DNA of 56,632 nucleotides from Minisyncoccota bacterium (GTDB lineage Bacteria; Patescibacteriota; Minisyncoccia; Phycocordibacterales; GWA1-40-21). The stretch's first letter is position 1. Each line of letters starts with the position of its first letter. Position numbers and translations under genes: made by a program. Of this stretch, positions 1 to 40,992 are shown in pieces. Location of the stretch: contig JBAYMB010000001.1 in NCBI GenBank assembly GCA_041663745.1, positions 1 through 56,632 of the forward strand, given 5' to 3'. The notes under the pieces are model-generated. The model worked only from the letters and a program-made list of their open reading frames with translations, was not told the DNA's origin and did not search any database.

Positions 1-1
1 G

Positions 2-430
2 AACTGTGCAGTGAGCGTAGGGACGACCAACCAAGTCTTGGCATACAACGATACCAACCCTCTCTCAGCCGTATACCTCTCAGACCTCCCATATACAGGA
101 GCTGGAGATACAGAAAAGATGATCCTCTTTGTCACAACCCTCATACTCTGGTCAGCTGCAGTATCCCTCTACTTCCTCAAGAAGAAGCAGACAGAACTGA
201 CACCAGTCTTGGTATCAACACAATCAACAGAAACACCAAAGACCAGCTCAGACTCACAGCTTCTCTCTGATATAGAGGCATATGCCAGATCACAGAAGGT
301 CCTTCTCTCATCAGAGGCCATCATGAAGCTTGCCAAACAGAAGAAACTCAACAATGTGAATCCGAACACTGTGATATCAAAGATATCTACAGGTGAATGG
401 GTAGCAGTCGGAGAGGGACAAATACAGTAA
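2..430 (+). CDS. 5'-truncated envelope protein with an LPYTG sortase-like motif, TM helix, KKK, then an ~80-aa tail
   Basis: The frame of track ORF 11..430 stays open to the window edge, so the true start is probably upstream. Contains SDLPYTGAGDTEKMILFVTTLILWSAAVSLYFLKKK. Confidence 0.5.
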   Translation, partial: NCAVSVGTTNQVLAYNDTNPLSAVYLSDLPYTGAGDTEKMILFVTTLILWSAAVSLYFLKKKQTELTPVLVSTQSTETPKTSSDSQLLSDIEAYARSQKVLLSSEAIMKLAKQKKLNNVNPNTVISKISTGEWVAVGEGQIQ

Positions 431-435
431 TCAAC

Positions 436-461
436 AAAACCCCGCTAAAAAGCGGGGTTTT
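436..461 (+). terminator. Rho-independent terminator
   Basis: CCCCGC (440-445) pairs with GCGGGG (452-457). Flanked by A4 and T4, a few nt after the stop at 430. Confidence 0.7.
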
Positions 462-512
462 GTATTGTCAAAACAAGGCTTAAAACAAGGGTATTATAAT
501 TCCTAAAAGGTA

Positions 513-540
513 TTGACAAATATTTATTATCGTGTATAAT
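513..540 (+). promoter_or_regulatory. Sigma70-type promoter
   Basis: TTGACA (513-518), 16-nt spacer, TATAAT (535-540). Downstream SD AAGGAGAG (578-585) sits 6 nt before ATG-592. Confidence 0.55.
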
Positions 541-591
541 TGTTGGTAGAGGTACCCCTTTACTGGGGATCACAAACAAGGAGAGTCCTAC

Positions 592-1185
592 ATGTTGGAC
601 TTCTTTTTCTTTCACGTGTCGGGTTGGGGTTTGGTTTGGTTCTTGGTGGGAGTTCTCACTTTCATCAATGTCCTGGTGATTCTGTACGAAGTGCAGAACC
701 CGCCGGCGACGCGCAGAGCCGCTGCCAGTTTCTGGAGGCGGATGTGGAATGTGGCGAAGGTCTCTATCGTGACCTTAGCCGTTATCTTTCTCGTCGTCGG
801 CATCATTGCGACGATTCGGGGAGGAAGCCTCAATGTTGGCTATGGTGCGGGTACGATGACGAAGTCATCGTCCGCTCCTGACCAAACAGCGCCGAACAAA
901 ACGGTGCAGCAACGCCCAATCGACTATGGGGATCTAAACCTCCCTTGCATGTCGATTCAGAATTCGGCTGGTTTACCGGCCGAGGTCGTGGACTCAAACG
1001 GCGCCAAATATACTTTGGCATCGGGTGAACTTCACGGGTTCTGTTCTCACTCCGGTGGGATATTCAGCGTTACTGTTTCGTACGGGGGCAAAACCCTCAC
1101 CCAAAGCATGGACACAAGTCTCGGAAGGCACTTGTGGACGCTTGTCCCCGAAGGCAATGGGGATTTCAGGCGGCTAAAGAAGTAA
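592..1185 (+). CDS. Hypothetical membrane protein in a G+C-rich islet
   Basis: 197-aa ORF with two N-terminal hydrophobic helices and a strong SD. Codons are visibly richer in G/C than neighbours. Overlapping alternative-frame ORFs are typical of a G+C-rich insert. Confidence 0.6.
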   Translation: MLDFFFFHVSGWGLVWFLVGVLTFINVLVILYEVQNPPATRRAAASFWRRMWNVAKVSIVTLAVIFLVVGIIATIRGGSLNVGYGAGTMTKSSSAPDQTAPNKTVQQRPIDYGDLNLPCMSIQNSAGLPAEVVDSNGAKYTLASGELHGFCSHSGGIFSVTVSYGGKTLTQSMDTSLGRHLWTLVPEGNGDFRRLKK

Positions 1186-1206
1186 GCCACCTGATGGTCG
1201 TAACGG

Positions 1207-1245
1207 GCCCTCTGTTTAGCGAAAGCTAAGCAGAGGGCTTTTTTT
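1207..1245 (+). terminator. Rho-independent terminator
   Basis: GCCCTCTG (1207-1214) pairs with CAGAGGGC (1231-1238), with inner TTAGC/GCTAA pairing, followed by T7. Confidence 0.75.
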
Positions 1246-1275
1246 ATTCCCCCTTTTTGTGCTAACATCCCCCAT

Positions 1276-1731
1276 ATGATAAGCAAAAGCTTGAAGGAAA
1301 CAGAGAACATAGCAAAAGATTTCATAAAAAACATAAAGAGCTCAAAAGGAGCTTTGGTAGTTGGCTTGTACGGCGATCTAGGTTCAGCCAAAACCACCTT
1401 CACTCAATTTGTCGCAAAGACACTAGGCATCAAGGAAGACATCACCAGCCCGACATTCGTCATTGAGAAGATATACGATATAAAGCACAAAGATCTCAAG
1501 AGGTTCATACATATAGATGCATACAGATTGAACTCCGCAAAAGAACTTTCTGTTCTTGGTTGGCAAACAACAGTTTCAGATCCAACAAACATTGTCTTCA
1601 TAGAATGGCCGGAGAGAGTCGTGGATATACTACCCAAGGATCATATAAAGATCAATTTTAAGTTCATCTCGGAGAATGAGAGGGAAATTACCATATGTTT
1701 AGGAAAAATAAGGTTGAAAATAGAATCGTAA
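1276..1731 (+). CDS. tsaE: tRNA t6A biosynthesis ATPase TsaE (YjeE)
   Basis: P-loop GDLGSAKTTF plus SPTFVI and IHIDAYRL motifs; ~150 aa. TGcTAACAT (1260-1268) lies 7 nt before the ATG. Confidence 0.8.
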   Translation: MISKSLKETENIAKDFIKNIKSSKGALVVGLYGDLGSAKTTFTQFVAKTLGIKEDITSPTFVIEKIYDIKHKDLKRFIHIDAYRLNSAKELSVLGWQTTVSDPTNIVFIEWPERVVDILPKDHIKINFKFISENEREITICLGKIRLKIES

Positions 1732-1780
1732 GGTGAAAATATGATACAATGTTTATATTATTAGTTAAATTTTAATAAAT

Positions 1781-2083
1781 ATGAAAGGATTCATTGATTT
1801 TGTAAGAGAACAGGGGGTTATCGGTTTGGCTGTCGGTTTTATTTTAGGCGGAGCAGTATCAAAAGTCGTTTCGGCTCTCGTTACAGATATTATCAATCCT
1901 CTTTTAGGGCTTGCTCTTGGTTCGGCAACAGGATTAAAGATGGCAGCGGTAAACGTCGGCTCGACCCAAATACTTTACGGTGATCTAATCAGCGTAATAA
2001 TCGACTTTATTGTCGTTGCTCTTGTAGTTTACTTCGGAGTAAAGATGCTTGGTCTCAACAAACTCGACAAGCCAAAAGTTTAA
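1781..2083 (+). CDS. mscL: Large-conductance mechanosensitive channel MscL (short form)
   Basis: MKGFIDFVREQGVIGLAVGFILGGA...DIINPLLG is the MscL N-terminal/TM1 signature. At only 100 aa the C-terminal cytoplasmic helix is reduced. Confidence 0.8.
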   Translation: MKGFIDFVREQGVIGLAVGFILGGAVSKVVSALVTDIINPLLGLALGSATGLKMAAVNVGSTQILYGDLISVIIDFIVVALVVYFGVKMLGLNKLDKPKV

Positions 2084-2106
2084 TCAAAAAATCTCAGAAA
2101 TTTCCA

Positions 2107-2142
2107 ATATCACTTCCGGAGTATCTCGGAAGTGATATTTTT
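2107..2142 (+). terminator. Rho-independent terminator
   Basis: 12-bp stem ATATCACTTCCG (2107-2118) / CGGAAGTGATAT (2127-2138) followed by a T-run. Confidence 0.8.
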
Positions 2143-2369
2143 CTATTTTTGCGTTGCACAACATCCTTTTACGACACTAGTGCGCAGAGGCAATCATTGG
2201 CTTTTTGAACGTTTCTCTGAGCTCAAATAGAGAATAAGTTTGAAAAGATATTTAGATAGTTTGGACAATATCGGATTGGAATCCCTTTCGTATGGATGTA
2301 GCAATAATAACAAAGTCAAGATGGGGATTTCACAAAGCGGAAATCCATCTTTTTTGATATAATAAACTT

Positions 2370-3197
2370 ATGAAACAAAGAGCTTTTACTCTCATAGAGC
2401 TTCTCGTAGTCATTGCCATCGTGGGCATTCTTTCTTCAGTCATCTACACGAATATCACAGGGCTCAGGGACAGAGCAAGGATAACTGCTGGAATACGGTT
2501 TGATTCCAGCTTGTACCATTCCATAGGAGATCAGCTTGTGGGAAAATATGACCTTGAGGAAGGAACTGGTGGATCGGGAACTGTCATAAAAGATGCAAGC
2601 GGATTGGGGAATAATGGAACGATAAACACTGCAGGTACGTCTTGGAGTACAGATACATATAATCAAACGCAATCAAGATATTCTATTTCTTTCAGCGGAG
2701 CTGACTACTTCACCCCTTCAAGGGGATTTGGCATATCAAACAGCAATTTCACATTCACCGAATGGATCAAGACTACGAGCACGAACGGTCAAATGTATAC
2801 CATAGCGAATGCAGGCGGCGGAGATGGATATAGGTTTGGACTGGCTGACGGGAAAATAGCTTTTCTAATCGGAAATAGCGGAGGCTTGAACGAATCTTTC
2901 GGCGCAGGTTGCACATCCAGATCCGTAAATGATGGTTCATGGCATCATATTGCAGGTGTCTTTGACCGGGTCAATGGCATATTTTCCTGCTATGTCGATG
3001 GGAACAAGGTCGGAACAAGATCAATCACATATTTTGCGAACATGAATGATTCTGCTCCAAGAATAGGCAAGGGGATTTGCTGCACCAATTTTGTAGGCTC
3101 GCTTGATGATGTGAGGATATACAGCTCAAGTCTTGATGGTCTGAGCATACGATCAATATACGAGGAAGAGAAGAATAAATATCTGGTCTCAAATTGA
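2370..3197 (+). CDS. Prepilin-type N-terminal domain protein with LamG/concanavalin-like domain (pseudopilin paralog 1)
   Basis: MKQRA|FTLIELLVVIAIVGILSS class-III signal, and a C-terminal ...LDDVRIYSSSL motif typical of LamG pilin-like proteins. TGaTATAAT (2355-2363) lies 6 nt before the ATG. Confidence 0.8.
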   Translation: MKQRAFTLIELLVVIAIVGILSSVIYTNITGLRDRARITAGIRFDSSLYHSIGDQLVGKYDLEEGTGGSGTVIKDASGLGNNGTINTAGTSWSTDTYNQTQSRYSISFSGADYFTPSRGFGISNSNFTFTEWIKTTSTNGQMYTIANAGGGDGYRFGLADGKIAFLIGNSGGLNESFGAGCTSRSVNDGSWHHIAGVFDRVNGIFSCYVDGNKVGTRSITYFANMNDSAPRIGKGICCTNFVGSLDDVRIYSSSLDGLSIRSIYEEEKNKYLVSN

Positions 3198-3226
3198 TCC
3201 TATGCAACCATGATATAATGGGTCCA

Positions 3227-5608
3227 ATGACGAAAGAGAATAAAAACAAGGTTCTGGTCCTTCTTGATGTCCATGCCATAATCCATCGCGCATATCATGC
3301 GCTTCCAGAATTTGCCACAAGCAAGGGCGTGCCGACAGGCGCTCTATACGGCCTCTCCACGATGCTTTTGAAGATCATAGGAGATCTCAAGCCGGACTAC
3401 ATCATCGCCTGCTACGATCTTCCCAAACCGACATACAGACATGAGGCATACAAAGAATACAAAGCCGGCAGAGCCAAAGCTGATGAAGAGCTTGTCATAC
3501 AATTGAAGAGGTCATACGACATCTTCAATGCTTTCAATATCCCTCTGTATTCAAAGGAAGGATTTGAGGCTGATGACATGATAGGGACAATAGTGGAGAA
3601 GATGAAGAAGGAAAAAGATATTGATATAGTCATCGCTTCCGGGGACATGGACACCCTTCAGCTCGTGGATGATGACAGGGTCAGAGTGTATACCCTTAAA
3701 AAAGGCATCAAAGACACCATCATATACAACGAAAAAGCGGTCTTGGAGAGATACGGCTTCGGACCGGAGCTTCTTCCGGACTACAAAGGCCTTCGCGGAG
3801 ACCCGTCTGACAATATAATAGGCATAAAAGGCATAGGGGAGAAGACTGCAACTGATCTAATAATCAATTTCGGCAGCATTGAGGATATATATAAGAAGCT
3901 AAAGAAGGACAAGACACAATTTGAGAAAGCGGGAATAAAGGAAAGGATAATAGGATTGCTTCTCGAGGGGGAGGAGGAGGCTAAGTTCTCCAAAATGCTC
4001 GGTACTGTGAACAGGAATGCTCCCATAGATTTCTCATTGCCTGAAAAGACATGGAAGGAAGCGATCGATGTCGAGAAGGTCAATGCTGTATGGAACGATT
4101 TCGAGTTTCGGACTCTGGGACAGAGGCTCAAGGATGTTTTGCATGGCAAAGCATCCGCTGTGAAGGAGGAAAAGGTTGAAACTGCATCCGATGAGACATA
4201 CGAGGACATCCCGGAGCTTTCTGTCATGCTTTGGCTCATAAACTCGAACATGACAAGTCCGACTTCCGAGGATGTTTTCAATTTCACAAAGACGAGAGAT
4301 GCAAAGGAAGCGAAGAAGGTCCTTTCCGAGGAGATAAAGAAAAGAGAGCTTCAAAAAGTATGGGAGACCATAGAAAAACCTTTGATACCCGTCATAGTCA
4401 AGATGCAAAATAACGGAGTGAAGATAGACAAGGAAGAGCTCAATGCCCTATCCAAGAAATATCACAAGGAGCTGTCCTCTCTTGAGGAAAAGATATGGAA
4501 GCTTGCCGGGGAGAATTTCAATATCAATTCACCTAAACAATTGGGAGAGATTCTTTTTGTTAAGCTTGGCCTAAAACCCAAGAATCAGAAAAAGACTGGT
4601 TCCGGTGCATTATCTACTAAAGAATCAGAGCTCGAAAAGATGAGAGATATGCATCCGATAGTTCCTCTCATATTTGAATACAGAGAATTTCAAAAACTTC
4701 TCTCCACATATATTGATGTCATCCCAACTATGCTCGATGCAAATGACAGGCTTCATGCCAAGTTCCTCCAAGCAGGGACGACGACAGGAAGACTTGCATC
4801 TTCCGATCCGAATCTGCAGAACATTCCGAACTCAAGCGAGCTCGGAAGGAACATCCGGGAGGCGTTCATAACGGAAAAAGGCAAAAAGCTCCTGACCTTT
4901 GACTATTCTCAAGCAGAGCTCAGGATCGCCGCACTCCTTTCAAACGATCAAAAGCTCATCGATATCTTCAAAAAAGGGGAGGATGTCCACACCGTCGTTG
5001 CTTCAGAGGTATTCAATGTCCCTCCAAAGGATGTGGACAAGGAGATGAGGCGAAGGGCAAAGGTCATCAACTTCGGCATCATGTACGGAATGGGAGTGAA
5101 TTCCTTGAAAGGCAATCTAGGCTCTACGAGGGAGGAGGCGCAGAAATATCTGGATGAGTATTTCACGAAATTCCACGGCTTGGCGAAATATCTTGAATTT
5201 GTCAAAGCCGATGCAAAGGAAAAAGGATACACAGAGACGCTTTTCGGCAGGAGGAGATATTTTGAAGGCCTTAGATCAAAAGTTCCATTCATTAAGGCCA
5301 TGGCAGAGAGAATGGCCATCAATGCTCCGATACAGGGCACGGAAGCTGATGTCATTAAGCTTGCAATGGTCAAGATAGATGAATACATCACGAAAGAAAA
5401 TCTAGAAGAGAAGGTGAAAATGACCCTTCAGGTCCATGATGAGCTTGTCTTTGAGGTGGACGAGAAGCTTCCGAAGGAGATAGTCCTTGAAATAAAGGGA
5501 ATAATGGAGAATATAGTGTCCAAGGATATGTCAAAGGGGATTGTCATGAAGGTTGACGCTTCGGAAGGGAGGAATTGGAAAGAGATGGAAAAGATCAAGT
5601 TTTCTTGA
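3227..5608 (+). CDS. polA: DNA polymerase I
   Basis: 5'-nuclease motifs (LLDVHAIIHRAYHA, GDPSDNIIGIKGIGEKTA) and polymerase motifs (DYSQAELRI, RRRAKVINFGIMYGM, QVHDELVFEV). Start moved from track TTG-3194 to in-frame ATG-3227, which lies 7 nt after TGaTATAAT (3211-3219). Confidence 0.9.
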   Translation: MTKENKNKVLVLLDVHAIIHRAYHALPEFATSKGVPTGALYGLSTMLLKIIGDLKPDYIIACYDLPKPTYRHEAYKEYKAGRAKADEELVIQLKRSYDIFNAFNIPLYSKEGFEADDMIGTIVEKMKKEKDIDIVIASGDMDTLQLVDDDRVRVYTLKKGIKDTIIYNEKAVLERYGFGPELLPDYKGLRGDPSDNIIGIKGIGEKTATDLIINFGSIEDIYKKLKKDKTQFEKAGIKERIIGLLLEGEEEAKFSKMLGTVNRNAPIDFSLPEKTWKEAIDVEKVNAVWNDFEFRTLGQRLKDVLHGKASAVKEEKVETASDETYEDIPELSVMLWLINSNMTSPTSEDVFNFTKTRDAKEAKKVLSEEIKKRELQKVWETIEKPLIPVIVKMQNNGVKIDKEELNALSKKYHKELSSLEEKIWKLAGENFNINSPKQLGEILFVKLGLKPKNQKKTGSGALSTKESELEKMRDMHPIVPLIFEYREFQKLLSTYIDVIPTMLDANDRLHAKFLQAGTTTGRLASSDPNLQNIPNSSELGRNIREAFITEKGKKLLTFDYSQAELRIAALLSNDQKLIDIFKKGEDVHTVVASEVFNVPPKDVDKEMRRRAKVINFGIMYGMGVNSLKGNLGSTREEAQKYLDEYFTKFHGLAKYLEFVKADAKEKGYTETLFGRRRYFEGLRSKVPFIKAMAERMAINAPIQGTEADVIKLAMVKIDEYITKENLEEKVKMTLQVHDELVFEVDEKLPKEIVLEIKGIMENIVSKDMSKGIVMKVDASEGRNWKEMEKIKFS

Positions 5609-5655
5609 CAAAAATCAGGCATTTTGATAAGATGCAGGGGTAATAAGGACATGTA

Positions 5656-5684
5656 AGTTCGCTTCAGGGCGAACTCATTTTTTT
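5656..5684 (+). terminator. Rho-independent terminator
   Basis: AGTTCGC (5656-5662) pairs with GCGAACT (5669-5675), then T7. Confidence 0.7.
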
Positions 5685-5705
5685 AAATAATAATCAAATA
5701 AAACC

Positions 5706-6905
5706 ATGATAGATCTAAAAGTCATAAATTCGGTCATAGAGCAGATGGAGGCTGAGAAGGGAATACCAAAAGCCAAGATGATAGAGGCCATAGAGCTGGC
5801 TCTTGCAACTGCATACAAGAAGGAATACGGAAAGAGAGGCCAGATCATAAAAGCAAAGATAGACTTGGGTTCCGGAAAGATGGAATTCGTCCAGCTCAAG
5901 ACCGTTGTCGACAAAGACAGCGTTGTTTTGCGTGAGGACAAGAAGGAGGACAAGGAGGCTGAGGAACGGTTCAGAAGAAGCAGAAGAATGGAGGAAGAGA
6001 AGGAGGAGCTCAATGAAAAGGGAGAGAAGGTCACATACTACAATTCCGAACATCATATCTTTTTGGCTGATGCGAAGAAGATAAAGAAGGACGCAAAGGT
6101 GGGCGATGAGCTCGTATTTCCTCTTGAAGAGAAATCAGACTACGGCAGGATCGCCGCTCAGACCGCAAAGCAGGTCATCGTCCAGAAGATAAGGGAAGCT
6201 GAAAAAGTTTCCGTGTTCAACGAATACGGGGAAAAGGAGGGCACCATAGTCACGGGCACAGTACAGAGGCTTGAAAGGGGAAATCTTTTTGTTGATATGG
6301 GAAGAGCCACTGCAATATTGCCTTTTGAGGAGCAGATACCAGGCGAGAAATACAAGCCGGGAGAGAGGATCAGAGCATATCTATACAGAGTGGAAGAGAC
6401 CCCGAAGGGGATCTTCTTGAGGCTCTCACGTTCTCATCCGAAATTCCTCGAAGAGCTTTTCAAGTCTGAATCTCCGGAACTCGGGTCAGGCGCAGTTCTC
6501 GTGAAGTCAATCGCAAGGGAAGCAGGTTCAAGATCGAAGATAGCGGTCGCTTCGATAGATGAGCATATAGATCCTGTGGGATCGCTTGTCGGACAGAGAG
6601 GCGTGCGCGTTGCGACAGTCATGTCCGAGCTCGGAGGGGAGAAGATAGATATCATAGAATGGTCTCCTGATCCGAAAAAATTCATAGAAGAAGCATTGTC
6701 TCCGGCAAGAGTCCTTTCCGTCTCAGTTGATGATTTGGAGAAGAAAGCCACCATAGAGGTCGCTGAGGACCAGCAATCTCTGGCCATCGGAAAGGGAGGA
6801 CAGAACGTCAGACTTGCCGCCAAGCTCACAGGATGGAAGATAGACATAGTTTCCGTGGAGGGGGAATATGTAGAGGAAGATGAGGTGGAGGAAAAAGCTA
6901 AATAA
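5706..6905 (+). CDS. nusA: Transcription termination/antitermination factor NusA
   Basis: NusA NTD, S1 domain (GTVQRLERGNLFVDMG) and two KH domains (LAIGKGGQNVRLAAKLTGWKIDI). Carries a ~40-aa highly charged insertion between NTD and S1. Confidence 0.9.
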   Translation: MIDLKVINSVIEQMEAEKGIPKAKMIEAIELALATAYKKEYGKRGQIIKAKIDLGSGKMEFVQLKTVVDKDSVVLREDKKEDKEAEERFRRSRRMEEEKEELNEKGEKVTYYNSEHHIFLADAKKIKKDAKVGDELVFPLEEKSDYGRIAAQTAKQVIVQKIREAEKVSVFNEYGEKEGTIVTGTVQRLERGNLFVDMGRATAILPFEEQIPGEKYKPGERIRAYLYRVEETPKGIFLRLSRSHPKFLEELFKSESPELGSGAVLVKSIAREAGSRSKIAVASIDEHIDPVGSLVGQRGVRVATVMSELGGEKIDIIEWSPDPKKFIEEALSPARVLSVSVDDLEKKATIEVAEDQQSLAIGKGGQNVRLAAKLTGWKIDIVSVEGEYVEEDEVEEKAK

Positions 6906-6960
6906 ACTAATGACCGGGCTCATATGTGGCTCGGTTATTCGTTTATGGTCGTTTGATATG

Positions 6961-6988
6961 TTGAACTTTTGAATGTGTTTGATACAAT
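6961..6988 (+). promoter_or_regulatory. Promoter with extended -10
   Basis: TTGAAC (6961-6966), 16 nt, TGaTACAAT (6980-6988). ATG-6999 follows 10 nt later. Confidence 0.5.
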
Positions 6989-7027
6989 ACCTGACATAAT
7001 GAACTTAACTAATCACAGAGCATTACT

Positions 7028-7050
7028 GAGAGAGAGAGAGAGAGAGAGAG
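7028..7050. repeat. (GA)11.5 dinucleotide simple-sequence repeat
   Basis: An uninterrupted 23-nt GAGAGA...G run. It lies between ATG-6999 and the pilin reading frame. Confidence 0.95.
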
Positions 7051-7057
7051 TAACCGC

Positions 7058-7918
7058 TTGCTTCCGAATTATCATTCTAGTGCAAAGATAAGAGCCTTTA
7101 CGCTCATAGAACTTCTTGTCGTCATAGCCATTGTTGGCATACTCTCTTCTGTCATATATACAAATATCACAGGACTTCGGGACAGAGCAAAGATAACTGC
7201 AGGGATTAGATTTGATTCTTCCACTCTTCACTCAATTGGGGATCAGTTGGTAGGAGAGTGGACGTTTGATTCTCCCAACTTGCCTCTCATAGACACTTCG
7301 GGATTTGGAAATACAGGAACTTGCACAGCTTGTCCTACATACGCCACTACTTCTGGATATAACAATAAAGGAGCATATAGTTTTGATGGAATAAATGATT
7401 ACATAAGAATCGCTGATTCGGATATTTTAAGAATGAACGGCACGTCAAATTTAACTATGTCTGCTTGGATAAAGATTTCTAATTTGGCAGATTCTGACGA
7501 ACAATTTATTGTTAGTAAATATGGTTATGTTGCTAATACAGGATATTCTTTGGAGGTTTTGAGCACTGGAGCCGTAAGGATGAATATAAATGGTGGGGCA
7601 AATTCAAAAACAACTGCTACGAAACCTATTATCGCCGGTGTCTGGAGCCATATTGTCGGAGAATTTTCCAATGGAAATACAATAAAAGTATATGTTAATG
7701 GCTCATTAATTCAAACATGGCCTATAACACAGACTACGCTGATAAGTAATAATGGTATTTTGGCAATAGGTAGTCCTTCAGACAATGCTGGAATTGATAA
7801 TTATTCTTTATCCGGTTTAATTGATGATGTTCGCATTTATTCCTCAGCCCTCTCTTCTTCTGACATCCAAAAACTATATGCTGAAGGGAAGGCAAGCCAC
7901 GAAGTAGTGGTAAAATAA
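7058..7918 (+). CDS. Prepilin-type N-terminal domain protein with LamG-like domain (pseudopilin paralog 2)
   Basis: ...AKIRA|FTLIELLVVIAIVGILSS and C-terminal LIDDVRIYSSALSSSDIQKLYAEGK. The track start is TTG-7058 with no ATG. The frame stays open upstream through the GA repeat to 7013. Confidence 0.75.
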   Translation: MLPNYHSSAKIRAFTLIELLVVIAIVGILSSVIYTNITGLRDRAKITAGIRFDSSTLHSIGDQLVGEWTFDSPNLPLIDTSGFGNTGTCTACPTYATTSGYNNKGAYSFDGINDYIRIADSDILRMNGTSNLTMSAWIKISNLADSDEQFIVSKYGYVANTGYSLEVLSTGAVRMNINGGANSKTTATKPIIAGVWSHIVGEFSNGNTIKVYVNGSLIQTWPITQTTLISNNGILAIGSPSDNAGIDNYSLSGLIDDVRIYSSALSSSDIQKLYAEGKASHEVVVK

Positions 7919-7971
7919 GGATATGTTTGACGGGCAAAAATGGTCTGATACACTGAATATGTATCAATATG

Positions 7972-8012
7972 AAAAACACCTCTTAGGGTTCCGTCCTTAA
8001 GCGGTGTTTTTT
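7972..8012. terminator. Bidirectional-looking terminator hairpin (copy of a shared element)
   Basis: AAAAACACC-TC-TTAGGG / CCTTAA-GC-GGTGTTTTTT: A-run, stem and T-run. Related in inverted orientation to the hairpin at 16581..16620. Confidence 0.7.
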
Positions 8013-8093
8013 CTGTAAGTGATCACCAAAAACTGTTTTGTCCACAATACCCTTTATAATATTGTCAGATCGTGTTATCATATAGTCAATAAC

Positions 8094-8594
8094 ATGGTCA
8101 AAGAAACTTGCCAAAAAATTGACGAGAAGGCCTATAAAAATGCGGTTTTATACTTCATCAAATACTGCAATAATCAGTATCTGCATGCTACAAAGCTGAA
8201 TAAGCTGTTGTATTACCTTGATTTTATCTTTTTTAGAGATCATGGAAGACCTGTCACTGGTGACGTGTACATACACCAGGGTTACGGTCCTGTTCCATCA
8301 ACGATCGATGAGGTTCTTACAAAATTGAAGTCGGATAAGATAATTGATACAGAAGCGAAGCCGTATAATGGCGAGGAAATGATCAATTTTTTACTGAAAG
8401 ATGATTCTAAGTTTGACGAGTCGGTTTTCTCCTTGGAACAGAAAAAATTGTTGAAACAAATATGTGATGAGTTCTCTGGTTGGTCCACTGAAAAAATTGT
8501 CGCTCAAACACATCTTGAGGCGCCGTGGTTCTATTCAAAACCATATGAGATCGTAGACTATGCATATGCCCGCGATATAGATTTTTTTAAGTAA
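8094..8594 (+). CDS. Panacea-domain (DUF4065, SocA/PanA-like) putative antitoxin
   Basis: KLNKLLYYLDFIFFRDHGRPVTGDVYIHQGYGPVP matches the DUF4065 core as I remember it. Start taken at ATG-8094 rather than track GTG-8019. TGtTATCAT lies at 8073-8081. Confidence 0.65.
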   Translation: MVKETCQKIDEKAYKNAVLYFIKYCNNQYLHATKLNKLLYYLDFIFFRDHGRPVTGDVYIHQGYGPVPSTIDEVLTKLKSDKIIDTEAKPYNGEEMINFLLKDDSKFDESVFSLEQKKLLKQICDEFSGWSTEKIVAQTHLEAPWFYSKPYEIVDYAYARDIDFFK

Positions 8595-8606
8595 CGTTTC
8601 ATTTAT

Positions 8607-8987
8607 ATGGCATGGATCTACGTTGAAAGAGAAAGTTTTGTCCGCATGAGCGAAAATATTGGGATATCTAATCAAGTCCGCGAGGCTGTAAAGGTATGGG
8701 CTCCTACGGTCAGCAGATGCATACTTCCTCGTCAAAAGCTCATATATCGTTCTCCTAAAAATAGGTATGAAGCATGGTCCGCTGGAATCCCGAATCCTGA
8801 CAGCAATAAAGGTAAAAGTGGAGGGTACAGGATAGTCTATTTCCTTGATCTGACCGAAAGAACCATAAATCTCGATTTCATAGAAGTAAGAAAGGAATTG
8901 GGTTTCCATGATGAACATCGCAAAAAAGACCGATATAATGATTATACTAGAGGTTTGAAGGAATATTTGAAGAATCTGGATAATTAA
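8607..8987 (+). CDS. RelE-superfamily-like toxin (GKSGGYR type)
   Basis: The KGKSGGYRIVYFLD motif is characteristic of RelE/HigB-like (COG4737-type) toxins. Lies 12 nt downstream of the Panacea gene. Confidence 0.55.
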   Translation: MAWIYVERESFVRMSENIGISNQVREAVKVWAPTVSRCILPRQKLIYRSPKNRYEAWSAGIPNPDSNKGKSGGYRIVYFLDLTERTINLDFIEVRKELGFHDEHRKKDRYNDYTRGLKEYLKNLDN

Positions 8988-9059
8988 AGGTAATCCACAG
9001 CCTCATTTAACAAAATCTCCAAAGATGTATAATACAGGCATATCAATAACCACACTCAT

Positions 9060-9896
9060 ATGAAAAAGACATATCTCATATCATCAATTCTTCTTCTTTC
9101 GGTCCTCTTGTCAGGGTCTGCTCGCGCAGAGGATGAGAATATAATCACGCCGGCACCGACGACCACAAGCGCAAGCGTAGTCAGGATAGAGCAGATAAAG
9201 AAGACCTTGGACACGATACAGCAGAATGTCTTTTTGCAGAGGCAGAACATGGAAGCTCTCAGGGCTTCTGCGACTGCAGCCCTTGAATTGAAGAAAGAGC
9301 TGATACAAAATGCTCTTTTGCAGGAGAAGGAGATTTCAAAGACGTTGATTGCTTCGACAACAGAGGCGTTTAAAGAGCAAAAGGAAGCGTTGCAAGCGAA
9401 GCTGATGCAAGAAAAGCAGAACTTGGCCTCAAGCACGGCCGCACTGAAGGAGCTCAAGCAGGAATTCAAAGATGAGATCGAGAAGAGGGTCGGAAAGAAT
9501 CTTGACGAGAAAAGAACGGCGATAGCGAATGGTTTTGAGCAGGCCATAAAGCAGCTTGATGATCTTGCAAGCAAGGTGGAGACGAGGATAGGGAAGATGG
9601 AAAGCGCGGGGGCGGACGTTTCCTCGGCGAGAACTGCGCTGAATGCGGCAAGAGAGAAGATAGTTCTTGCCAATGAGGGCATAACGGCGCTTGAGAACAA
9701 GCTTGCCGAGACCATTTCCACAAGCACCAGAAAGACGATGGTTTCTGACATCAAGAAACTCGGCGAAGATATCAAATCGAACATGAAGGCGGCCCACAGG
9801 TCCATCACCGATGCCATAAACGCCATGCACTCAGTTGAAAAACAAAAGAACAATGAACAGGTCGAGTCATCTACTACAAGCACCATGGGGATGTAA
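9060..9896 (+). CDS. Secreted coiled-coil protein
   Basis: Signal peptide MKKTYLISSILLLSVLLSGSARA, followed by Ala/Glu/Lys/Gln-rich heptad-like sequence. The equally long antisense ORF has no such features. Confidence 0.65.
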   Translation: MKKTYLISSILLLSVLLSGSARAEDENIITPAPTTTSASVVRIEQIKKTLDTIQQNVFLQRQNMEALRASATAALELKKELIQNALLQEKEISKTLIASTTEAFKEQKEALQAKLMQEKQNLASSTAALKELKQEFKDEIEKRVGKNLDEKRTAIANGFEQAIKQLDDLASKVETRIGKMESAGADVSSARTALNAAREKIVLANEGITALENKLAETISTSTRKTMVSDIKKLGEDIKSNMKAAHRSITDAINAMHSVEKQKNNEQVESSTTSTMGM

Positions 9897-9908
9897 TAAA
9901 TAAAAAAT

Positions 9909-10175
9909 ATGAAAGAAAACAATCAAGATGGGGAAGTCGGGGTCGTCGCAGGGATAGTGATCGTTGTCATCGTCCTTGTGGTCGGAGCCGTCTACTTTTT
10001 CGGACAAAGGCTTGAAAAGCAGAAGCAGATAGAGTCTCTATTGAACGGCTCCACGGAGATTTCTACAACCTCCTCAAATACCATATCAACCTCATCGGAT
10101 GATATAGGCAGTTTGCAAAAGGAAGCAAGTTCCGTGAACTTTGATGATCTTGGAAAAGGCATAGATAGCCTGTAA
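9909..10175 (+). CDS. Small single-pass membrane protein
   Basis: 88 aa with TM helix VVAGIVIVVIVLVVGAVYFF. Lies 12 nt after the preceding gene. Confidence 0.5.
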   Translation: MKENNQDGEVGVVAGIVIVVIVLVVGAVYFFGQRLEKQKQIESLLNGSTEISTTSSNTISTSSDDIGSLQKEASSVNFDDLGKGIDSL

Positions 10176-10190
10176 CATTTGGCTTTGAGA

Positions 10191-10217
10191 CTGGACGGAC
10201 AATATCCGCCCAGTTTT
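10191..10217 (+). terminator. Rho-independent terminator
   Basis: CTGGACGGA (10191-10199) pairs with TCCGCCCAG (10205-10213) with one mismatch, then TTTT. Confidence 0.55.
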
Positions 10218-10253
10218 GCATTTTGTCCGATTTTCGGTTAGACTGCACCTACC

Positions 10254-11306
10254 ATGAAAATTTTCAAGATAAAAGAGACGAAAAACCTGCCTGATTGCCA
10301 GGTGGAGATAACAGCTGAGATCCCGAGCGAGTCTCTGGGGTCATACAAGGACAAGGCCTTTAAAAAGATAAAGGATGTGGCCGAGATGCCCGGTTTCAGG
10401 AAGGGCCATGTTCCGGATGCAGTGCTTCGGGAGAAGATCGGCGAGCTCGGTCTTCTTGAGGATGCCGGAGAGATGGCCATACAGGATTCTGTCATAGAGA
10501 TCCTCATTGAGGCAAAGATCAATTTCCTTGGCAGGCCGGAGATCAGTATAACGAAGATCGCCATAGGCTCTCCGCTTGAATTCAAGATAAAGGTCACGAC
10601 CATGCCGGAAGTGAAGCTTCCCGACTACAAGAAGGTTGCAAGCAAGGAGAACAAGAAGGAAGAGAAGATAGAGGAAGTCACGGAAAAACAGATCGAAGAG
10701 ACCATAGAGCAGATCAGAAAGATGTATGCGGAGCAGAACCATACCCATAAGGAAGGGGAGATTCATAAGCATGATGAGGTCCTTCCATTGCCTGAAGTGA
10801 ACGATGAGTTTGTGAAGAAGCTAGGCGATTTCAAGGACGTACCAGATTTCAGGATGAAATTGAAGGGAAATATCGCTAAAGAAAAGGAAATGAAGGCACA
10901 AGAGAAGAAGAGGATAGCCATAATCGAGAAGATCATCGCTGATTCGAAGATAGACATGCCGAAGGTTCTGATTGAAAGCGAACTTGATAAGATGGAAGGG
11001 CAGATGAAGGCGGATATCGCCGGAATGGGACTTCAGCCGGATGATTACTTGAAGCATATAAAGAAGACATGGGCGGATCTCAGGAAAGAGTGGATACCTG
11101 ATGCCGAGAAGAGGGCAAAGGTGCAGATAGTCTTGCAAAAGATATCCCTTGAAGAGAAGCTTGAACCGAAAAAGGAGGATGTGGAGAAGGAATCAAAGCA
11201 TCTCATGGAACAGTACAAAGATGCTGATCCGGAAAGGATTCGCGCTTATGTGGAAATGATCCTTTCGAATGAGGCGGTCATCAAGTTTCTGGAGGGGCAG
11301 AGATAG
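10254..11306 (+). CDS. tig: Trigger factor lacking the PPIase domain
   Basis: N-terminal ribosome-binding domain with GFRKGHVP motif and a C-terminal arm domain. At 350 aa, the N and C domains are joined by a short His-rich linker where the FKBP domain normally sits. Confidence 0.8.
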   Translation: MKIFKIKETKNLPDCQVEITAEIPSESLGSYKDKAFKKIKDVAEMPGFRKGHVPDAVLREKIGELGLLEDAGEMAIQDSVIEILIEAKINFLGRPEISITKIAIGSPLEFKIKVTTMPEVKLPDYKKVASKENKKEEKIEEVTEKQIEETIEQIRKMYAEQNHTHKEGEIHKHDEVLPLPEVNDEFVKKLGDFKDVPDFRMKLKGNIAKEKEMKAQEKKRIAIIEKIIADSKIDMPKVLIESELDKMEGQMKADIAGMGLQPDDYLKHIKKTWADLRKEWIPDAEKRAKVQIVLQKISLEEKLEPKKEDVEKESKHLMEQYKDADPERIRAYVEMILSNEAVIKFLEGQR

Positions 11307-11384
11307 GGACAAACTCTTGACAGATAATTCTAAAAGCTGTACAATCCAAAACAGTAATAAAGCTCTTTTAAATACTTGCGAAGC

Positions 11385-11433
11385 GGTCATAGCCAAAAGT
11401 TTCTGAAAAAATCGGAAGTTTTTGGCTATGACC
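11385..11433. other. Perfect 14-bp inverted repeat (stem-loop) at the left edge of a G+C-rich islet
   Basis: GGTCATAGCCAAAA (11385-11398) and TTTTGGCTATGACC (11420-11433) with a 21-nt loop and no T-run. Confidence 0.6.
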
Positions 11434-11523
11434 ATGAGTCCTAGCCCTTTGTTCCTATCAGGAACAAAGAAAAAGTTTCGGCTAACAGCCGAGAAGGATA
11501 GGTGCAGCAGGAAGTATCCGAAC

Positions 11524-12123
11524 ATGCAGTGGGGAAAGATGGAAGCAGTCATCAACAAGCTCGGCGGGGAAGACGGTGTAGACCGTTTCCTCCGTGACGA
11601 ACTCGTGGTCTCTGTCCCCGTCCGCAGCTGGCGCGAAGAAGACGGCGTAATCTACTTCACCGTCACTTCAAACGGGAAGTCGGGCAAGGAGTGGATCAAA
11701 CACTTCGAGTCCAGGAAGATCAAGATCAGCGACTATGCCAAACAGCTCTTGCTGTCGAAAGACTTCAAGCCAAGCAAAAAGGGCACGGTCTCGCAGATTG
11801 CGCTCATCAAGGGAGAATCCTTTTCCGATGATGACCGCATCACGTCAAAGATTCGGAGAGAGGCCGACCGTCACAAGATGGAAAAGTCGAATGCCGAAGT
11901 TGCTTGCCTCATCCGCGACTTGTTCACGGACGAGGAGATCAAGGCAATGGGTCTTTACTGGATCATAACGATGCACGAACCCATCAAGGATTCTGACGGC
12001 GCTCCTCGCTTGCTCAGTATGAATCGGGACGGTGGTGGGCCGTGGTTCGACACGTACTACGACAGGTCTGGTTTCGGGTGGGGTCGTGAGAGCGGTTTTG
12101 CCTTCGTTGCTCCGCAAGTATAG
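11524..12123 (+). CDS. Hypothetical protein in a G+C-rich islet
   Basis: In-frame ATG-11524 preceded by AGGAAG. Track start TTG-11422 lies inside the stem-loop. Composition is markedly G+C-rich: the 60-nt line at 11581 has 38 G+C. Confidence 0.55.
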   Translation: MQWGKMEAVINKLGGEDGVDRFLRDELVVSVPVRSWREEDGVIYFTVTSNGKSGKEWIKHFESRKIKISDYAKQLLLSKDFKPSKKGTVSQIALIKGESFSDDDRITSKIRREADRHKMEKSNAEVACLIRDLFTDEEIKAMGLYWIITMHEPIKDSDGAPRLLSMNRDGGGPWFDTYYDRSGFGWGRESGFAFVAPQV

Positions 12124-12130
12124 TTAGTTC

Positions 12131-12169
12131 TTAACCCCATTCCGATTTATCGGAATGGGGTTAATTTTT
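12131..12169 (+). terminator. Strong rho-independent terminator
   Basis: 16-bp stem TTAACCCCATTCCGAT (12131-12146) / ATCGGAATGGGGTTAA (12149-12164), then T5. Confidence 0.8.
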
Positions 12170-12195
12170 GCATAAAAAATGATATAATGGCAGAA

Positions 12196-13872
12196 ATGCA
12201 TTTAGACACCAAACAGCTCAAAGACTTCCTCATAGACTCAGGGGTCATCACGCGAAGTGGATTCTCTGAGATAGAGGGAGATATAAAGAAAGGCAGATAC
12301 AAAGACTCTGCCGAAAAGGTGTTGGTGAGCCTCGGGAAGATCACGGAAGACGATCTGCGCAAAGCGGAATCATACTCTTTTGGGATTCCTTTTGTCGAGC
12401 TTAAAGGACATAAAATAGATCTTTCGATACTCTCGATCATCCCAGAGCCTATTTCCCGAAAGCATAATGTCATAGCTTTCAGCAGAATGAACGATTCAGT
12501 TGAAGTGGCTTTTCTTGATGTGAAAGATATTTCCTCAATTGAATTTTTGAAGGATAAGGGAATAAAGATCCTGCCGAGACTTACCGACACGGAGTCTATG
12601 CGATATGCACTTTTGCAATATCAGAAGCATTTGAAGACGGAGTTCGGGGATTTCATACAGAAGAACTCCTTGGAAGAGGGGGAGATAATAAAAGTAGTGG
12701 AGATGCTTGTGAAGCATGCACTTCTGCAGAACTCATCGGATATACATATAGAGTGCATGGAGGACAAGGTGGTCGTGAGATACAGGATAGCCGGGGTCTT
12801 GCATGATGCCATGATATTGCCCAAAGCCGCTGCGGCGAACATTGTCTCGAAGATAAGGTCACTGTCCAATTTGAAGACTACTGATATGCCTCAGGAAGGC
12901 AAGCTCAAGACGAAGATAGATGGGGAGGAGCTTTCTCTCCGAGTTTCGATCACACCTACGTATTTCGGGGAGAAGACCGTCATGAAGTTCTTGAAGGACA
13001 ATGTCGGAGGATATTCATTCCAATCACTCGGTCTTTTCGGAGAGAATCTTGAGAAGGTCCATGAGGTCATATCGGAAAGGAACGGAATGGTCCTTGTTGC
13101 AGGACCCAAGGGGTCCGGAAAGACCTCCACTTTGTATGCAATGCTTGAATCCCTGAACAATCCGAGCATTAGCATAGGGACAATTGAAGATCCAATAGAA
13201 TATCAGATGCCGAGAGTGAACCAGATGCAGGTCAAGGAGAAGGCAGGTTTGACCTTTGCTCATGGCTTGCGCTCCCTCGTCAAGCAGGATTCGGATGTGA
13301 TCATGGTTGGAGATATAGCCGACAGCGAGACTGCATCTTTGAGCGTCAGCGCCGCTTTAACAGGTCACTTCGTCCTTTCCGCCATAAATGCAAATTCGGC
13401 GCTCGGCGCCATTCAGAAGCTTTCCCAGATGAAGGTTGAGCCGTTCGCAGCCGCTTCAGCGGTGAAGCTTGTCGTGAGCCAGCGCCTTGTCAGGAGACTT
13501 TCCGATTCAAAGCAAAAGTACATTCTGTCCAAGTCGGAACTAGGAACGCTCTCAAAGATAGTTGACATGGAAAGGGTCCTGAAGATCCTGAAGGAGGAGA
13601 ACATCGTGGGGCAAAAGGACGATTGGTCCAAGATCCACTTTTTCAAGCCGAAGTCAGATAATGCGCACGACGCATATTCCGGAAAAGTCGCTATACACGA
13701 GGTAGTGAGGATTACTCCTGCCATAAGGGAGCTTTTGGTAAAGGGGGCTGGGCATAAGGAGATAGAGGCTGAGTCGAAAATGGAGGGGAACAGGTCTGCT
13801 ATCGAGGATGGCATGGTCAAATGCGCCATGGGCCTCACGACAGTCGATGAGGTCTTGAAATCGGAGTTCTAG
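12196..13872 (+). CDS. pilB: Type II secretion/type IV pilus assembly ATPase (GspE/PilB family)
   Basis: Walker A GPKGSGKTST, GspE-type Asp/His boxes and an N-terminal GSPII-like domain. The first ATG (12187) overlaps the -10 of TGaTATAAT (12180-12188), so ATG-12196, 7 nt after the -10, is preferred. Confidence 0.85.
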   Translation: MHLDTKQLKDFLIDSGVITRSGFSEIEGDIKKGRYKDSAEKVLVSLGKITEDDLRKAESYSFGIPFVELKGHKIDLSILSIIPEPISRKHNVIAFSRMNDSVEVAFLDVKDISSIEFLKDKGIKILPRLTDTESMRYALLQYQKHLKTEFGDFIQKNSLEEGEIIKVVEMLVKHALLQNSSDIHIECMEDKVVVRYRIAGVLHDAMILPKAAAANIVSKIRSLSNLKTTDMPQEGKLKTKIDGEELSLRVSITPTYFGEKTVMKFLKDNVGGYSFQSLGLFGENLEKVHEVISERNGMVLVAGPKGSGKTSTLYAMLESLNNPSISIGTIEDPIEYQMPRVNQMQVKEKAGLTFAHGLRSLVKQDSDVIMVGDIADSETASLSVSAALTGHFVLSAINANSALGAIQKLSQMKVEPFAAASAVKLVVSQRLVRRLSDSKQKYILSKSELGTLSKIVDMERVLKILKEENIVGQKDDWSKIHFFKPKSDNAHDAYSGKVAIHEVVRITPAIRELLVKGAGHKEIEAESKMEGNRSAIEDGMVKCAMGLTTVDEVLKSEF

Positions 13873-32033: not shown

Positions 32034-32102
32034 GTTATTAGGTTAAATTGATAATATTGGCATTATACTATAAAAATAGACAAATTGTGATATCATCCAG
32101 AT

Positions 32103-34448: not shown

Positions 34449-34468
34449 GCATATGATATAATTGGCAT

Positions 34469-38375: not shown

Positions 38376-38402
38376 AACAGACAACAAAAGTTGTCTGTTT
38401 TA
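38376..38402 (+). terminator. Rho-independent terminator
   Basis: AACAGACAA (38376-38384) pairs with TTGTCTGTT (38391-38399), then a T-run. Confidence 0.75.
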
Positions 38403-38424
38403 TTGTGATATCATTATCTTTATC

Positions 38425-39009: not shown

Positions 39010-39023
39010 TATAATTTCCCCAT

Positions 39024-40946: not shown

Positions 40947-40992
40947 TGAAATGGCTGGTAAAAAACCGATTTTTAATGTAAATTGACCTCAT

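What the first reader, a model, noticed from the sequence alone, without database searches (positions are those of the whole stretch)
6961..7091. (GA)11.5 repeat sets a promoter-proximal ATG out of frame with a pilin gene: candidate slipped-strand phase switch
**What the sequence shows.** A promoter (TTGAAC-16-TGaTACAAT, 6961-6988) is followed 10 nt later by ATG-6999. This matches the short-leader architecture seen at other genes in the window. That ATG opens MNLTNHRALL, then reads the 23-nt GA tract (7028-7050) as RERERER and stops at TAA 7089-7091, inside the pilin gene.

The pilin frame itself is open from 7013 through the GA tract. It has no ATG before the mature FTLIELL sequence, so the ORF caller has to use TTG-7058.

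**Effect of repeat length.** The distance from ATG-6999 to 7058 is 59 nt. Loss of one GA unit (or gain of two) would fuse ATG-6999 in frame to the pilin, giving MNLTNHRALL(RE)nSNRLLPNYHSSAKIRA|FTLIELL.... Dinucleotide tracts of this length are classic contingency loci in small-genome bacteria. A phase-variable pseudopilin in a CPR-type organism would be notable.
Basis: partly seen in the sequence, partly recalled or inferred. Interest (0 to 1): 0.7.

Follow-up and report, generated by a model that had tools for sequence, protein, structure and literature searches.

The report
Variable GA repeat before pilin gene
A 23-base GA repeat separates the natural-looking start codon from a pilus-adhesin gene in an uncultured Paceibacterota (CPR) bacterium, and its length differs between assemblies of otherwise identical DNA, so it is a credible but unproven on/off switch of a kind known from pathogens and not yet described in this group.

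Summary
(GA)11.5 at 7028-7050 is the only dinucleotide repeat of 5 or more units in the window. It lies between a promoter-proximal ATG (6999) and a type IV pilin-like gene with a LamG domain, whose only in-frame start is TTG-7058.

New evidence:
- **Length varies.** A Logan assembly of run SRR6484787 matches window 277-7190 with no mismatch but carries (GA)12.5. A third assembly has 11.5.
- **Repeats cluster at pilin genes.** In 126 kb of non-redundant DNA from this lineage, all four dinucleotide repeats of 5 or more units (9-11 units) lie within 120 nt upstream of a pilin's mature N-terminus. Three are (AT)9/10/11 tracts in a conserved pilin promoter.
- **ATG-6999 looks like the real start.** The genome is poor in Shine-Dalgarno sites and uses ATG starts 6-11 nt after an extended -10 box. 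ATG-6999 fits this pattern and TTG-7058 does not.

Caveats: both observed lengths are OFF, and the ON lengths (10.5, 13.5) were not seen. The 5' end looks like a recombination product of two pilin leaders. The window's join at 7303-7354 may be an assembly chimera.

Best reading: a slipped-strand contingency locus, confidence 0.55. It would be a new member of a known kind.

The parts
6909..6939 (+). Terminator-like hairpin after nusA (5706-6905). It separates the pilin transcription unit from nusA.
   Evidence: 12-pair stem followed by a T-rich tail; NusA domains.
6961..6988 (+). Sigma-70-like promoter: TTGAAC, 16-nt spacer, TACAAT, with an extended -10 (TGaTACAAT).
   Evidence: The same TGnTAnnnT motif lies 6-11 nt before the ATG of 11 of 40 genes in the window.
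6999..7027 (+). Promoter-proximal ATG plus a first leader module (MNLTNHRA, then TT-ACT). It resembles a pilin start (M-N-L...R-A|F-T) with one T missing.
   Evidence: Compare ATGAAACAAAGAGCTTTTACT at 2370 and the MNLKHSKERA|FT leader of P0004.
7028..7050 (.). (GA)11.5 repeat. It is 25 nt, (GA)12.5, in the Logan SRR6484787 contig.
7051..7096 (+). Linker plus a second leader module. It reads SNRLLPNYHSSAKIRA in the pilin frame and ends at the A|F cleavage site. TAA 7051-7053 is the stop used by the ATG-6999 frame at n=12.5.
   Evidence: No homologue of this 46-nt stretch exists in any fetched locus apart from the same locus in L169.
7058..7060 (+). TTG, the only standard in-frame start and the annotated one. 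It lacks an SD-like core (GGAG, GAGG or AGGA) upstream, and the 20 nt upstream are only 45% A+T.
7089..7091 (+). TAA stop of the ATG-6999 frame at n=11.5.
7097..7918 (+). Mature pilin-like protein: FTLIELL N-terminal helix plus a LamG jelly-roll domain.
   Evidence: PF07963, PF13385; large Paceibacterota paralogue family.
7303..7354 (+). Mosaic junction inside the pilin gene. Upstream of it the window equals ENA contig k141_674241. Downstream it equals ENA contig k141_1561124. The segment itself differs from both.
   Evidence: The Logan contigs stop at 7190 and restart at 7357.

Best explanation
The GA tract is a hypermutable simple-sequence repeat that works as a translational on/off switch for a LamG-domain type IV pilin-like adhesin.

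**Proposed mechanism**
- Transcription starts a few bases before ATG-6999 from the TGaTACAAT promoter.
- Ribosomes start at that ATG, as they do at the many short-leader genes of this SD-poor genome.
- Whether they reach the pilin depends on tract length.
- At n = 10.5, 13.5 and so on, the frame runs through (Arg-Glu)n into SNRLLPNYHSSAKIRA|FTLIELL. This gives a prepilin with a roughly 32-aa leader that the prepilin peptidase removes, so the repeat leaves no trace in the mature protein.
- At the two other length classes (11.5 and 12.5, both observed), translation stops at TAA 7089 or TAA 7051, and the pilin is off or made only weakly from TTG-7058.
- Slipped-strand mispairing during replication changes n in steps of one unit.

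**What is shown**
- The anatomy and the reading frames.
- The length polymorphism.
- The start-site context of ATG-6999.
- The exclusive association of long dinucleotide repeats with pilin 5' ends in this lineage.

**What is inferred**
- The transcription start.
- Use of ATG-6999 as the start codon.
- Processing of the long leader.
- Reversibility of the switch and its phenotype.
For: 1. **The tract is hypermutable.** L171 (Logan SRR6484787_975212) matches window 277-7190 with 0 mismatches and a single gap, which is one extra GA unit. L168 from the same run matches window 7357-12987 at 100%.
2. **The tract is a length outlier.** In 126 kb of non-redundant lineage DNA there are 13 dinucleotide repeats of 4 units, none of 5-8 units, and four of 9-11 units. 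All four lie within 120 nt upstream of a pilin F+1 codon, and such windows make up 1.9% of the sequence. In 1.03 Mb of unrelated loci only one dinucleotide repeat of 6 or more units occurs.
3. **Paralogous pilins carry a second repeat type.** P0004, P0023 and P0028 have (AT)9, (AT)10 and (AT)11 in a conserved promoter module, TTGATTT[A/G]CA-(AT)n-AATATAGGGT-ATG.
4. **ATG-6999 has the genome's normal start context.** An extended -10 box lies 10 nt upstream, and 11 of 40 genes have the motif 6-11 nt before the ATG. Only 3 of 40 genes have an SD-like core.
5. **TTG-7058 is atypical.** It is a non-ATG start, and its upstream A+T content (45%) ties the lowest of 33 genes.
6. **The close paralogues use ATG and short basic leaders.** All 40 of them with a complete N-terminus (P0002-P0041 except P0003, which is cut by a contig end) start with M followed by a short basic leader. 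This gene is the exception.
7. **Long double leaders exist in frame in distant relatives.** Examples are P0065, P0089, P0114, P0068 and P0088.
8. **Both OFF frames stop quickly and the ON frame is open at every length tested**.
9. **There is no competing RNA explanation.** Folding gives z = +0.55 and +1.32, and there are no Rfam matches.
Against: - No ON allele was seen. Three assemblies give 11.5, 11.5 and 12.5, all OFF.
- The protein collection holds only the 286-aa TTG form.
- If length were irrelevant, two OFF observations would not be unusual.
- The 5' end looks like an accidental fusion of two leader modules. The first has a 1-nt loss relative to GCATTTACT, and the AGAGCATTACT and AGAGCCTTTACG stretches flank the insert. 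It could be a scar.
- The ON-state leader (32 aa, acidic-basic repeat) is much longer than the 5-10 aa of all close paralogues.
- ATG-6999 is 10 nt from the -10 box, not the 6-7 nt typical of truly leaderless genes here.
- The extra unit in the Logan contig could in principle reflect stutter or assembler choice. Reads were not available.
- The window's join at 7303-7354 may be chimeric, so the gene body attached to this 5' end is uncertain.
Confidence: 0.55

Rival explanations
1. The pilin is made constitutively from TTG-7058. The GA tract sits in a roughly 60-nt 5' leader and overlaps a short upstream ORF. Its length variation is neutral, or at most tunes translation.
For: - The ORF from TTG-7058 is intact. 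Its leader, MLPNYHSSAKIRA, has K and R and has A at -1, like the paralogues.
- Both observed lengths leave this ORF untouched.
- JGI and NCBI annotate this start.
- AGAGAG could pair weakly with a CUUUCU 16S 3' tail. This is my own reasoning and was not tested.
Against: - The 40 window genes tabulated (chosen among ORFs that start with ATG) almost never have an SD-like core: 3 of 40 do.
- The context of TTG-7058 (45% A+T) ties the lowest of 33 genes.
- Ribosomes starting at the promoter-proximal ATG would read across the TTG.
- This rival does not explain why long dinucleotide repeats are found only at pilin 5' ends.
Confidence: 0.2
2. The 5' end is a recombination scar. Recombination between pilin paralogues fused a resident promoter-plus-leader stub to an incoming pilin copy out of frame. 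The copy is silent or decaying, and the repeat expanded without selection.
For: - There are two tandem leader modules, the first truncated after F-T with a 1-nt loss.
- The gene body is mosaic. It matches one contig up to 7302 and another from 7355.
- Synteny with the near-identical strain breaks exactly at the leader: M50 peptidase upstream there, NusA here.
- Only OFF alleles were seen.
Against: - The 286-codon ORF is intact, and its mature part is conserved.
- The pilin frame stays open for 15 codons upstream of the TTG, through the tract.
- The same 5' structure is kept 100% identical in a second sample whose strain differs elsewhere.
- Neutral expansion does not explain two independent long repeats, both at pilin 5' ends, in a genome otherwise free of them (p about 4e-4 for two origins).
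- In-frame double leaders exist in relatives.
Confidence: 0.2
3. The length difference is technical (PCR or Illumina stutter, or assembler choice), and the real tract is fixed.
For: - Only one assembly differs, by a single unit.
- Dinucleotide tracts are prone to stutter. This is general knowledge; the reads were not examined.
Against: - The tract (23-25 nt) is short enough to be spanned by single reads. It is also shorter than Logan's k-mer length (k=31 from my own memory, not checked here), so a contig consensus should reflect an abundant read population (inference).
- Three homologous AT-tract loci also differ in exact one-unit steps.
Confidence: 0.05

Closest known systems
Helicobacter pylori outer-membrane adhesin genes (oipA, and sabA/babA as named in the paper) with CT dinucleotide repeats in the signal-peptide coding region
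   Same: - A dinucleotide repeat (CT is the complement of GA/AG) lies in the 5' coding part that encodes a cleaved targeting peptide of a surface adhesin.
- Unit changes shift the frame on or off by slipped-strand mispairing.
- The repeat is removed from the mature protein (PMC10564699).
   Different: - Here the cleaved peptide is a class III (prepilin) leader, not a Sec signal peptide.
- The organism is an environmental Paceibacterota, not a pathogen.
- No ON allele or phenotype is documented.
- A possible TTG bypass start exists.
Haemophilus influenzae hifA/hifB fimbrial promoter with (TA)9-11
   Same: - A pilus gene family is controlled by a dinucleotide repeat of 9-11 units.
- This matches the (AT)9/10/11 tracts between TTGATT and TATAAT in the paralogous pilin promoters found here (L002, L163, L164; PMC2651432).
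   Different: - The GA tract of the finding lies downstream of the -10 box, so it cannot act through promoter spacing.
- The hif pili are chaperone-usher fimbriae, not type IV pilins.
Neisseria pilC poly-G tract in the signal-peptide region, and pilE/pilS cassette recombination (from my own knowledge, not checked in papers here)
   Same: - A repeat frameshift in the leader region switches a type IV pilus adhesin on and off.
- Pilin paralogues with conserved ends and variable cores recombine. The window gene is likewise a mosaic of paralogues.
   Different: - The Neisseria repeat is a mononucleotide tract, and PilC is not itself a pilin.
- Recombination here is only inferred from short-read assemblies and could be an assembly chimera.

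Membership tests
SSR-mediated translational phase-variable (contingency) locus | A perfect simple-sequence repeat far longer than the genome background | tested here: met
   (GA)11.5 is the only dinucleotide repeat of 5 or more units in 56.6 kb. The lineage background stops at 4 units. The chance expectation is about 1.5e-8.
SSR-mediated translational phase-variable (contingency) locus | Tract length is polymorphic among otherwise identical or near-identical genomes | tested here: met
   The tract is 11.5 units in the window and in L169/L170, and 12.5 units in L171. The L171 flanks have 0 mismatches over 6.9 kb. Reads were not examined.
SSR-mediated translational phase-variable (contingency) locus | The repeat lies between the initiation codon and the body of the ORF, so that unit changes switch the frame | tested here: inconclusive
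   The frames behave as required in silico, and ATG-6999 has the genome's usual start context. Use of ATG-6999 rather than TTG-7058 has not been demonstrated.
SSR-mediated translational phase-variable (contingency) locus | Both ON and OFF alleles occur in natural populations | tested here: not met
   Only the OFF lengths 11.5 and 12.5 appear in three assemblies. No in-frame long-leader protein is in the collection. The sample is very small.
SSR-mediated translational phase-variable (contingency) locus | Reversible, high-frequency switching of expression within a clone | not testable with these tools
   This needs read pile-ups, culture or reporter assays.
Promoter-spacer SSR switch (hifA/B type) | The repeat lies between the -35 and -10 hexamers | tested here: not met
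   The GA tract starts 40 nt downstream of the -10 box. The feature is met instead by the AT tracts of paralogues in L002, L163 and L164.
Type IV pilin-like protein (class III signal peptide) | An N-terminal methylation/cleavage motif, with G or A at -1, F at +1, E at +5 and a hydrophobic helix | tested here: met
   PF07963 scores 30.8 bits against a cut-off of 21.2. The sequence reads ...KIRA|FTLIELLVVIAIVGILSSV. Close paralogues also use A at -1.
Type IV pilin-like protein (class III signal peptide) | Pilus assembly machinery is present in the genome | tested here: inconclusive
   A PilB-like T2SSE ATPase lies at 12187-13872. I did not search for a prepilin peptidase, a platform protein or other parts, and the window is only 56 kb of the genome.
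LamG/concanavalin-like lectin domain protein | Laminin_G_3 domain above the curated threshold | tested here: met
   PF13385 matches with E 8e-29 and 101 bits against a cut-off of 27.6, over residues 110-271.

The most novel reading that the evidence does not exclude
This Paceibacterota lineage may run a multi-locus 'phasome' of LamG-pilin adhesins. It would combine:
- a GA repeat inside a prepilin leader (a translational switch);
- AT repeats in the promoter of another pilin subfamily (a transcriptional switch);
- recombination between paralogues with conserved ends and variable lectin cores.

Together these would give each cell lineage a stochastic, combinatorial set of pilus tips for attaching to hosts or evading phages. 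It would be the first contingency-locus system described in the Candidate Phyla Radiation.
Probability: 0.35. Interest if true: 0.75.

Novelty: new member of a known kind. Interest (0 to 1): 0.58.

Why it matters
Type IV pili are the best-documented attachment and host-recognition organelles of cultivated CPR bacteria (Saccharibacteria; PMC9894109 and PMC11623550). How uncultured CPR lineages vary or regulate their many pilin paralogues is unknown.

Repeat-driven contingency loci are regarded as a hallmark of host-adapted, small-genome pathogens. No paper in the searched library holds 'Candidate Phyla Radiation' together with 'phase-variable'. The single paper holding 'Patescibacteria' together with 'phase variation' is about archaeal DNA methylation.

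If these tracts really switch pilin expression, CPR episymbionts use the same bet-hedging logic as pathogens. Pilin repertoires inferred from consensus MAGs would then misstate what individual cells express. Annotation pipelines that rescue such genes with a TTG start would hide the OFF state.

The claim is directly testable from existing reads.

Tried and rejected
**Searches that found nothing or little**
- Exact-flank searches for the locus with a variable gap found nothing in genome contigs or metagenome contigs.
- Protein-based locus scans of both collections mostly returned distant LamG proteins from other phyla. Only L004-L007 were close. The distant loci served only as a repeat-poor background.
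- Exact look-ups of the pilin product failed, both with M and with L as first residue. Neighbour genes (the 126-aa gene, NusA, P0053) had to be used instead.
- A search with the hypothetical ON-state N-terminus found no in-frame variant. It scored only 649 candidates and did not even return P0001, so it is a weak negative.
- The 46-nt linker (7051-7096) and the promoter region have no homologue in any fetched locus apart from the same locus. Their origin is unknown.

**Ideas rejected**
- *A structured RNA element in the leader:* folding energies are no better than shuffles (z = +0.55 and +1.32). There are no Rfam matches and no tRNA genes in the window.
- *A promoter-spacer mechanism for the GA tract:* the tract lies downstream of the -10 box.
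- *The GA tract as a Shine-Dalgarno element:* this is unlikely because the genome hardly uses such sites.
- *Transcriptional slippage or programmed frameshifting on a dinucleotide tract:* I considered these and set them aside for lack of any supporting feature.

Full report
**1. The observation**

The sequence is as described.
- Positions 7028-7050 are a perfect GA x11 plus G. This is the only dinucleotide repeat of 5 or more units in the 56,632-bp window. Base composition predicts about 1.5e-8 such tracts.
- nusA (5706-6905) is followed by a terminator-like hairpin at 6909-6939. A promoter-like site, TTGAAC-16-TACAAT with TG before the -10 box, lies at 6961-6988.
- ATG-6999 lies 10 nt after the -10 box. 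Its frame reads MNLTNHRALLRERERERVTACFRIIILVQR and stops at TAA 7089-7091.
- The pilin frame is open from 7013 and has no ATG or GTG before the mature FTLIELL at 7097. The only standard start is TTG-7058, which JGI and NCBI use.
- The product has the prepilin N_methyl motif and a Laminin_G_3 domain. NCBI names it as coming from a Candidatus Paceibacterota MAG.

**2. The gene family**

The protein belongs to a large Paceibacterota family of LamG-pilins (973 hits).
- The window holds four copies, with F+1 codons at 2385, 7097, 47406 and 48209.
- All 40 close paralogues with a complete N-terminus start with M and a 5-10-aa basic leader ending in A or G. Examples are MKQRA|F, MNRRG|F and MNLKHSKERA|F. 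The gene of the finding is the only exception.
- Region 6999-7027 itself looks like a pilin start: promoter, ATG, then MNL...RA followed by TT-ACT, where paralogues have TTT/TTC ACT.
- The locus therefore carries two leader modules in tandem. They are separated by the GA tract and 46 nt that have no homologue elsewhere.
- In-frame double leaders of 19-32 aa, with an internal (G/A)FT, exist in distant relatives: P0065, P0089, P0114, P0068 and P0088. A long fused leader is therefore not without precedent.

**3. How genes start in this genome**

I tabulated 40 genes of the window, chosen among ORFs that start with ATG.
- Only 3 have an SD-like core.
- 11 have a TGnTAnnnT extended -10 box 6-11 nt before the ATG, which implies leaderless or very short-leader mRNAs. 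Others have A+U-rich leaders.
- ATG-6999 (TGATACAAT plus 10 nt) fits this class.
- TTG-7058 does not fit. It is not an ATG, and it would lie about 60 nt into the transcript behind a translated ATG. Its upstream 20 nt are 45% A+T, which ties the lowest of 33 genes (mean 74%).

**4. Independent copies of the locus**

Look-ups through exact neighbour proteins recovered two other assemblies.
- *ENA ERZ27247350 contig k141_674241 (L169/L170).* It is identical to window 1-7302, including (GA)11.5.
- *Logan assembly of run SRR6484787.* It gives two contigs.
  - L171 matches window 277-7190 with no mismatch and a single gap, which is one extra GA unit: (GA)12.5, 25 nt.
  - L168 matches window 7357-12987 at 100%.

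The tract is therefore the only difference in 12.5 kb, which is the behaviour expected of a hypermutable repeat.

At 12.5 units the ATG-6999 frame stops at TAA 7051-7053. At 11.5 units it stops at TAA 7089-7091. Only 10.5, 13.5 and so on fuse it to the pilin. Both observed alleles are thus OFF, and no ON allele was found.

**5. Repeats at other pilin genes**

I surveyed 126 kb of non-redundant DNA from this lineage: the window, the unique part of L001, L002, L004-L007, L163 and L164.
- It holds 13 dinucleotide repeats of 4 units, none of 5-8 units, and four of 9-11 units.
- All four long repeats lie within 120 nt upstream of a pilin F+1 codon. Such windows are 1.9% of the sequence.
- Three of the four are (AT)9, (AT)10 and (AT)11 inside a conserved module, TTGATTT[A/G]CA-(AT)n-AATATAGGGT-ATG. 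This module precedes the pilins P0004, P0023 and P0028, which share the leader MN[LF]KH[SG]KE[KR]A.
- Conservation starts exactly at TTGATT, and the three genomic contexts are unrelated.
- If the AT loci count as one origin, two independent long repeats both landing at pilin 5' ends has p of about 4e-4.
- In 1.03 Mb of unrelated loci only one dinucleotide repeat of 6 or more units was found.

The AT tracts resemble the (TA)9-11 promoter switch of H. influenzae hifA/hifB (PMC2651432).

**6. Mosaic structure and a caveat**

The 109,909-bp ENA contig k141_1561124 (L001/L167) is identical to the window from 7355 to 12987. It differs by 5 mismatches over window 38194-56632 (L165). Within 7096-7354, however, it differs at 74 positions, and upstream it has unrelated genes (L28 and an M50 peptidase instead of NusA).

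The window segment 7303-7354 differs from both ENA contigs. The Logan contigs break at exactly this conserved pilin stretch.

There are two possible readings. Paralogous pilins may recombine, shuffling lectin cores and rearranging the genome. Alternatively, the window contig may be a chimera across a repeated segment. Neither reading affects the GA tract and its 5' context, which three assemblies support up to at least 7190.

**7. Interpretation**

The best-supported reading (0.55) is a slipped-strand translational switch of the H. pylori oipA type, in which a CT/GA repeat lies in the cleaved targeting peptide of an adhesin (PMC10564699). Here it sits in a prepilin leader.

Three rivals remain.
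- Constitutive TTG start with a neutral repeat (0.2).
- A silent recombination scar (0.2).
- A technical origin of the length difference (0.05).

An RNA-structure role is rejected, and a promoter-spacer role is excluded by position.

**8. Novelty**

The mechanism is classical. Its occurrence in CPR/Patescibacteria was not found in the searched literature. It is therefore a new member of a known kind. The evidence for hypermutability is real, but the switch function is not demonstrated.

Noticed in passing
L002/L003 4973-4991; L163 8639-8659; L164 7767-7789: Three pilin paralogues (P0004, P0023, P0028; leader MN[LF]KH[SG]KE[KR]A) share a promoter module, TTGATTT[A/G]CA-(AT)n-AATATAGGGT-ATG, with n = 9, 10 and 11. 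The upstream flanks are unrelated. This looks like a promoter-spacer or leader-length repeat switch of the hifA/hifB type.
   Followed up: partly
window 7096-7354 (junction 7303-7354): The pilin gene is a mosaic. Its 5' part is identical to ENA contig k141_674241, and its 3' part is identical to ENA contig k141_1561124, where the gene sits behind an M50 peptidase instead of NusA. The Logan contigs break here. This is either recombination between paralogues or an assembly chimera.
   Followed up: partly
whole window, e.g. 2355-2372, 34454-34471, 32088-32105: The genome is almost free of Shine-Dalgarno sites (3 of 40 genes). Many genes have a TGnTAnnnT extended -10 box only 6-11 nt before the ATG, implying widespread leaderless or very short-leader mRNAs.
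   Followed up: partly
proteins P0065, P0089, P0114, P0068, P0088, P0061: Distant LamG-pilins have long 'double' leaders with an internal (G/A)FT motif 10-14 residues before the real G|FTLIEL site. This suggests that partial duplication or fusion of leader modules recurs in this family.
   Followed up: no
window 8019-8594 and 8607-8987: A gene with a SocA/Panacea antitoxin domain is followed by a 126-aa gene with no Pfam match, directly downstream of the pilin. The 126-aa product is identical in the sister strain, and the Panacea-domain gene lies in DNA that is identical there. This may be a toxin-antitoxin pair.
   Followed up: no
window 47391-48197 and 48194-48988; also L001 1-1016, L163 106-1754 and 8669-10341: Pilin paralogues often occur as tandem pairs whose stop and start overlap (ATGA). 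The first gene ends in a conserved ...NLANK tail.
   Followed up: no
window 19299-19682: A PemK/MazF-like toxin gene lies among housekeeping genes.
   Followed up: no
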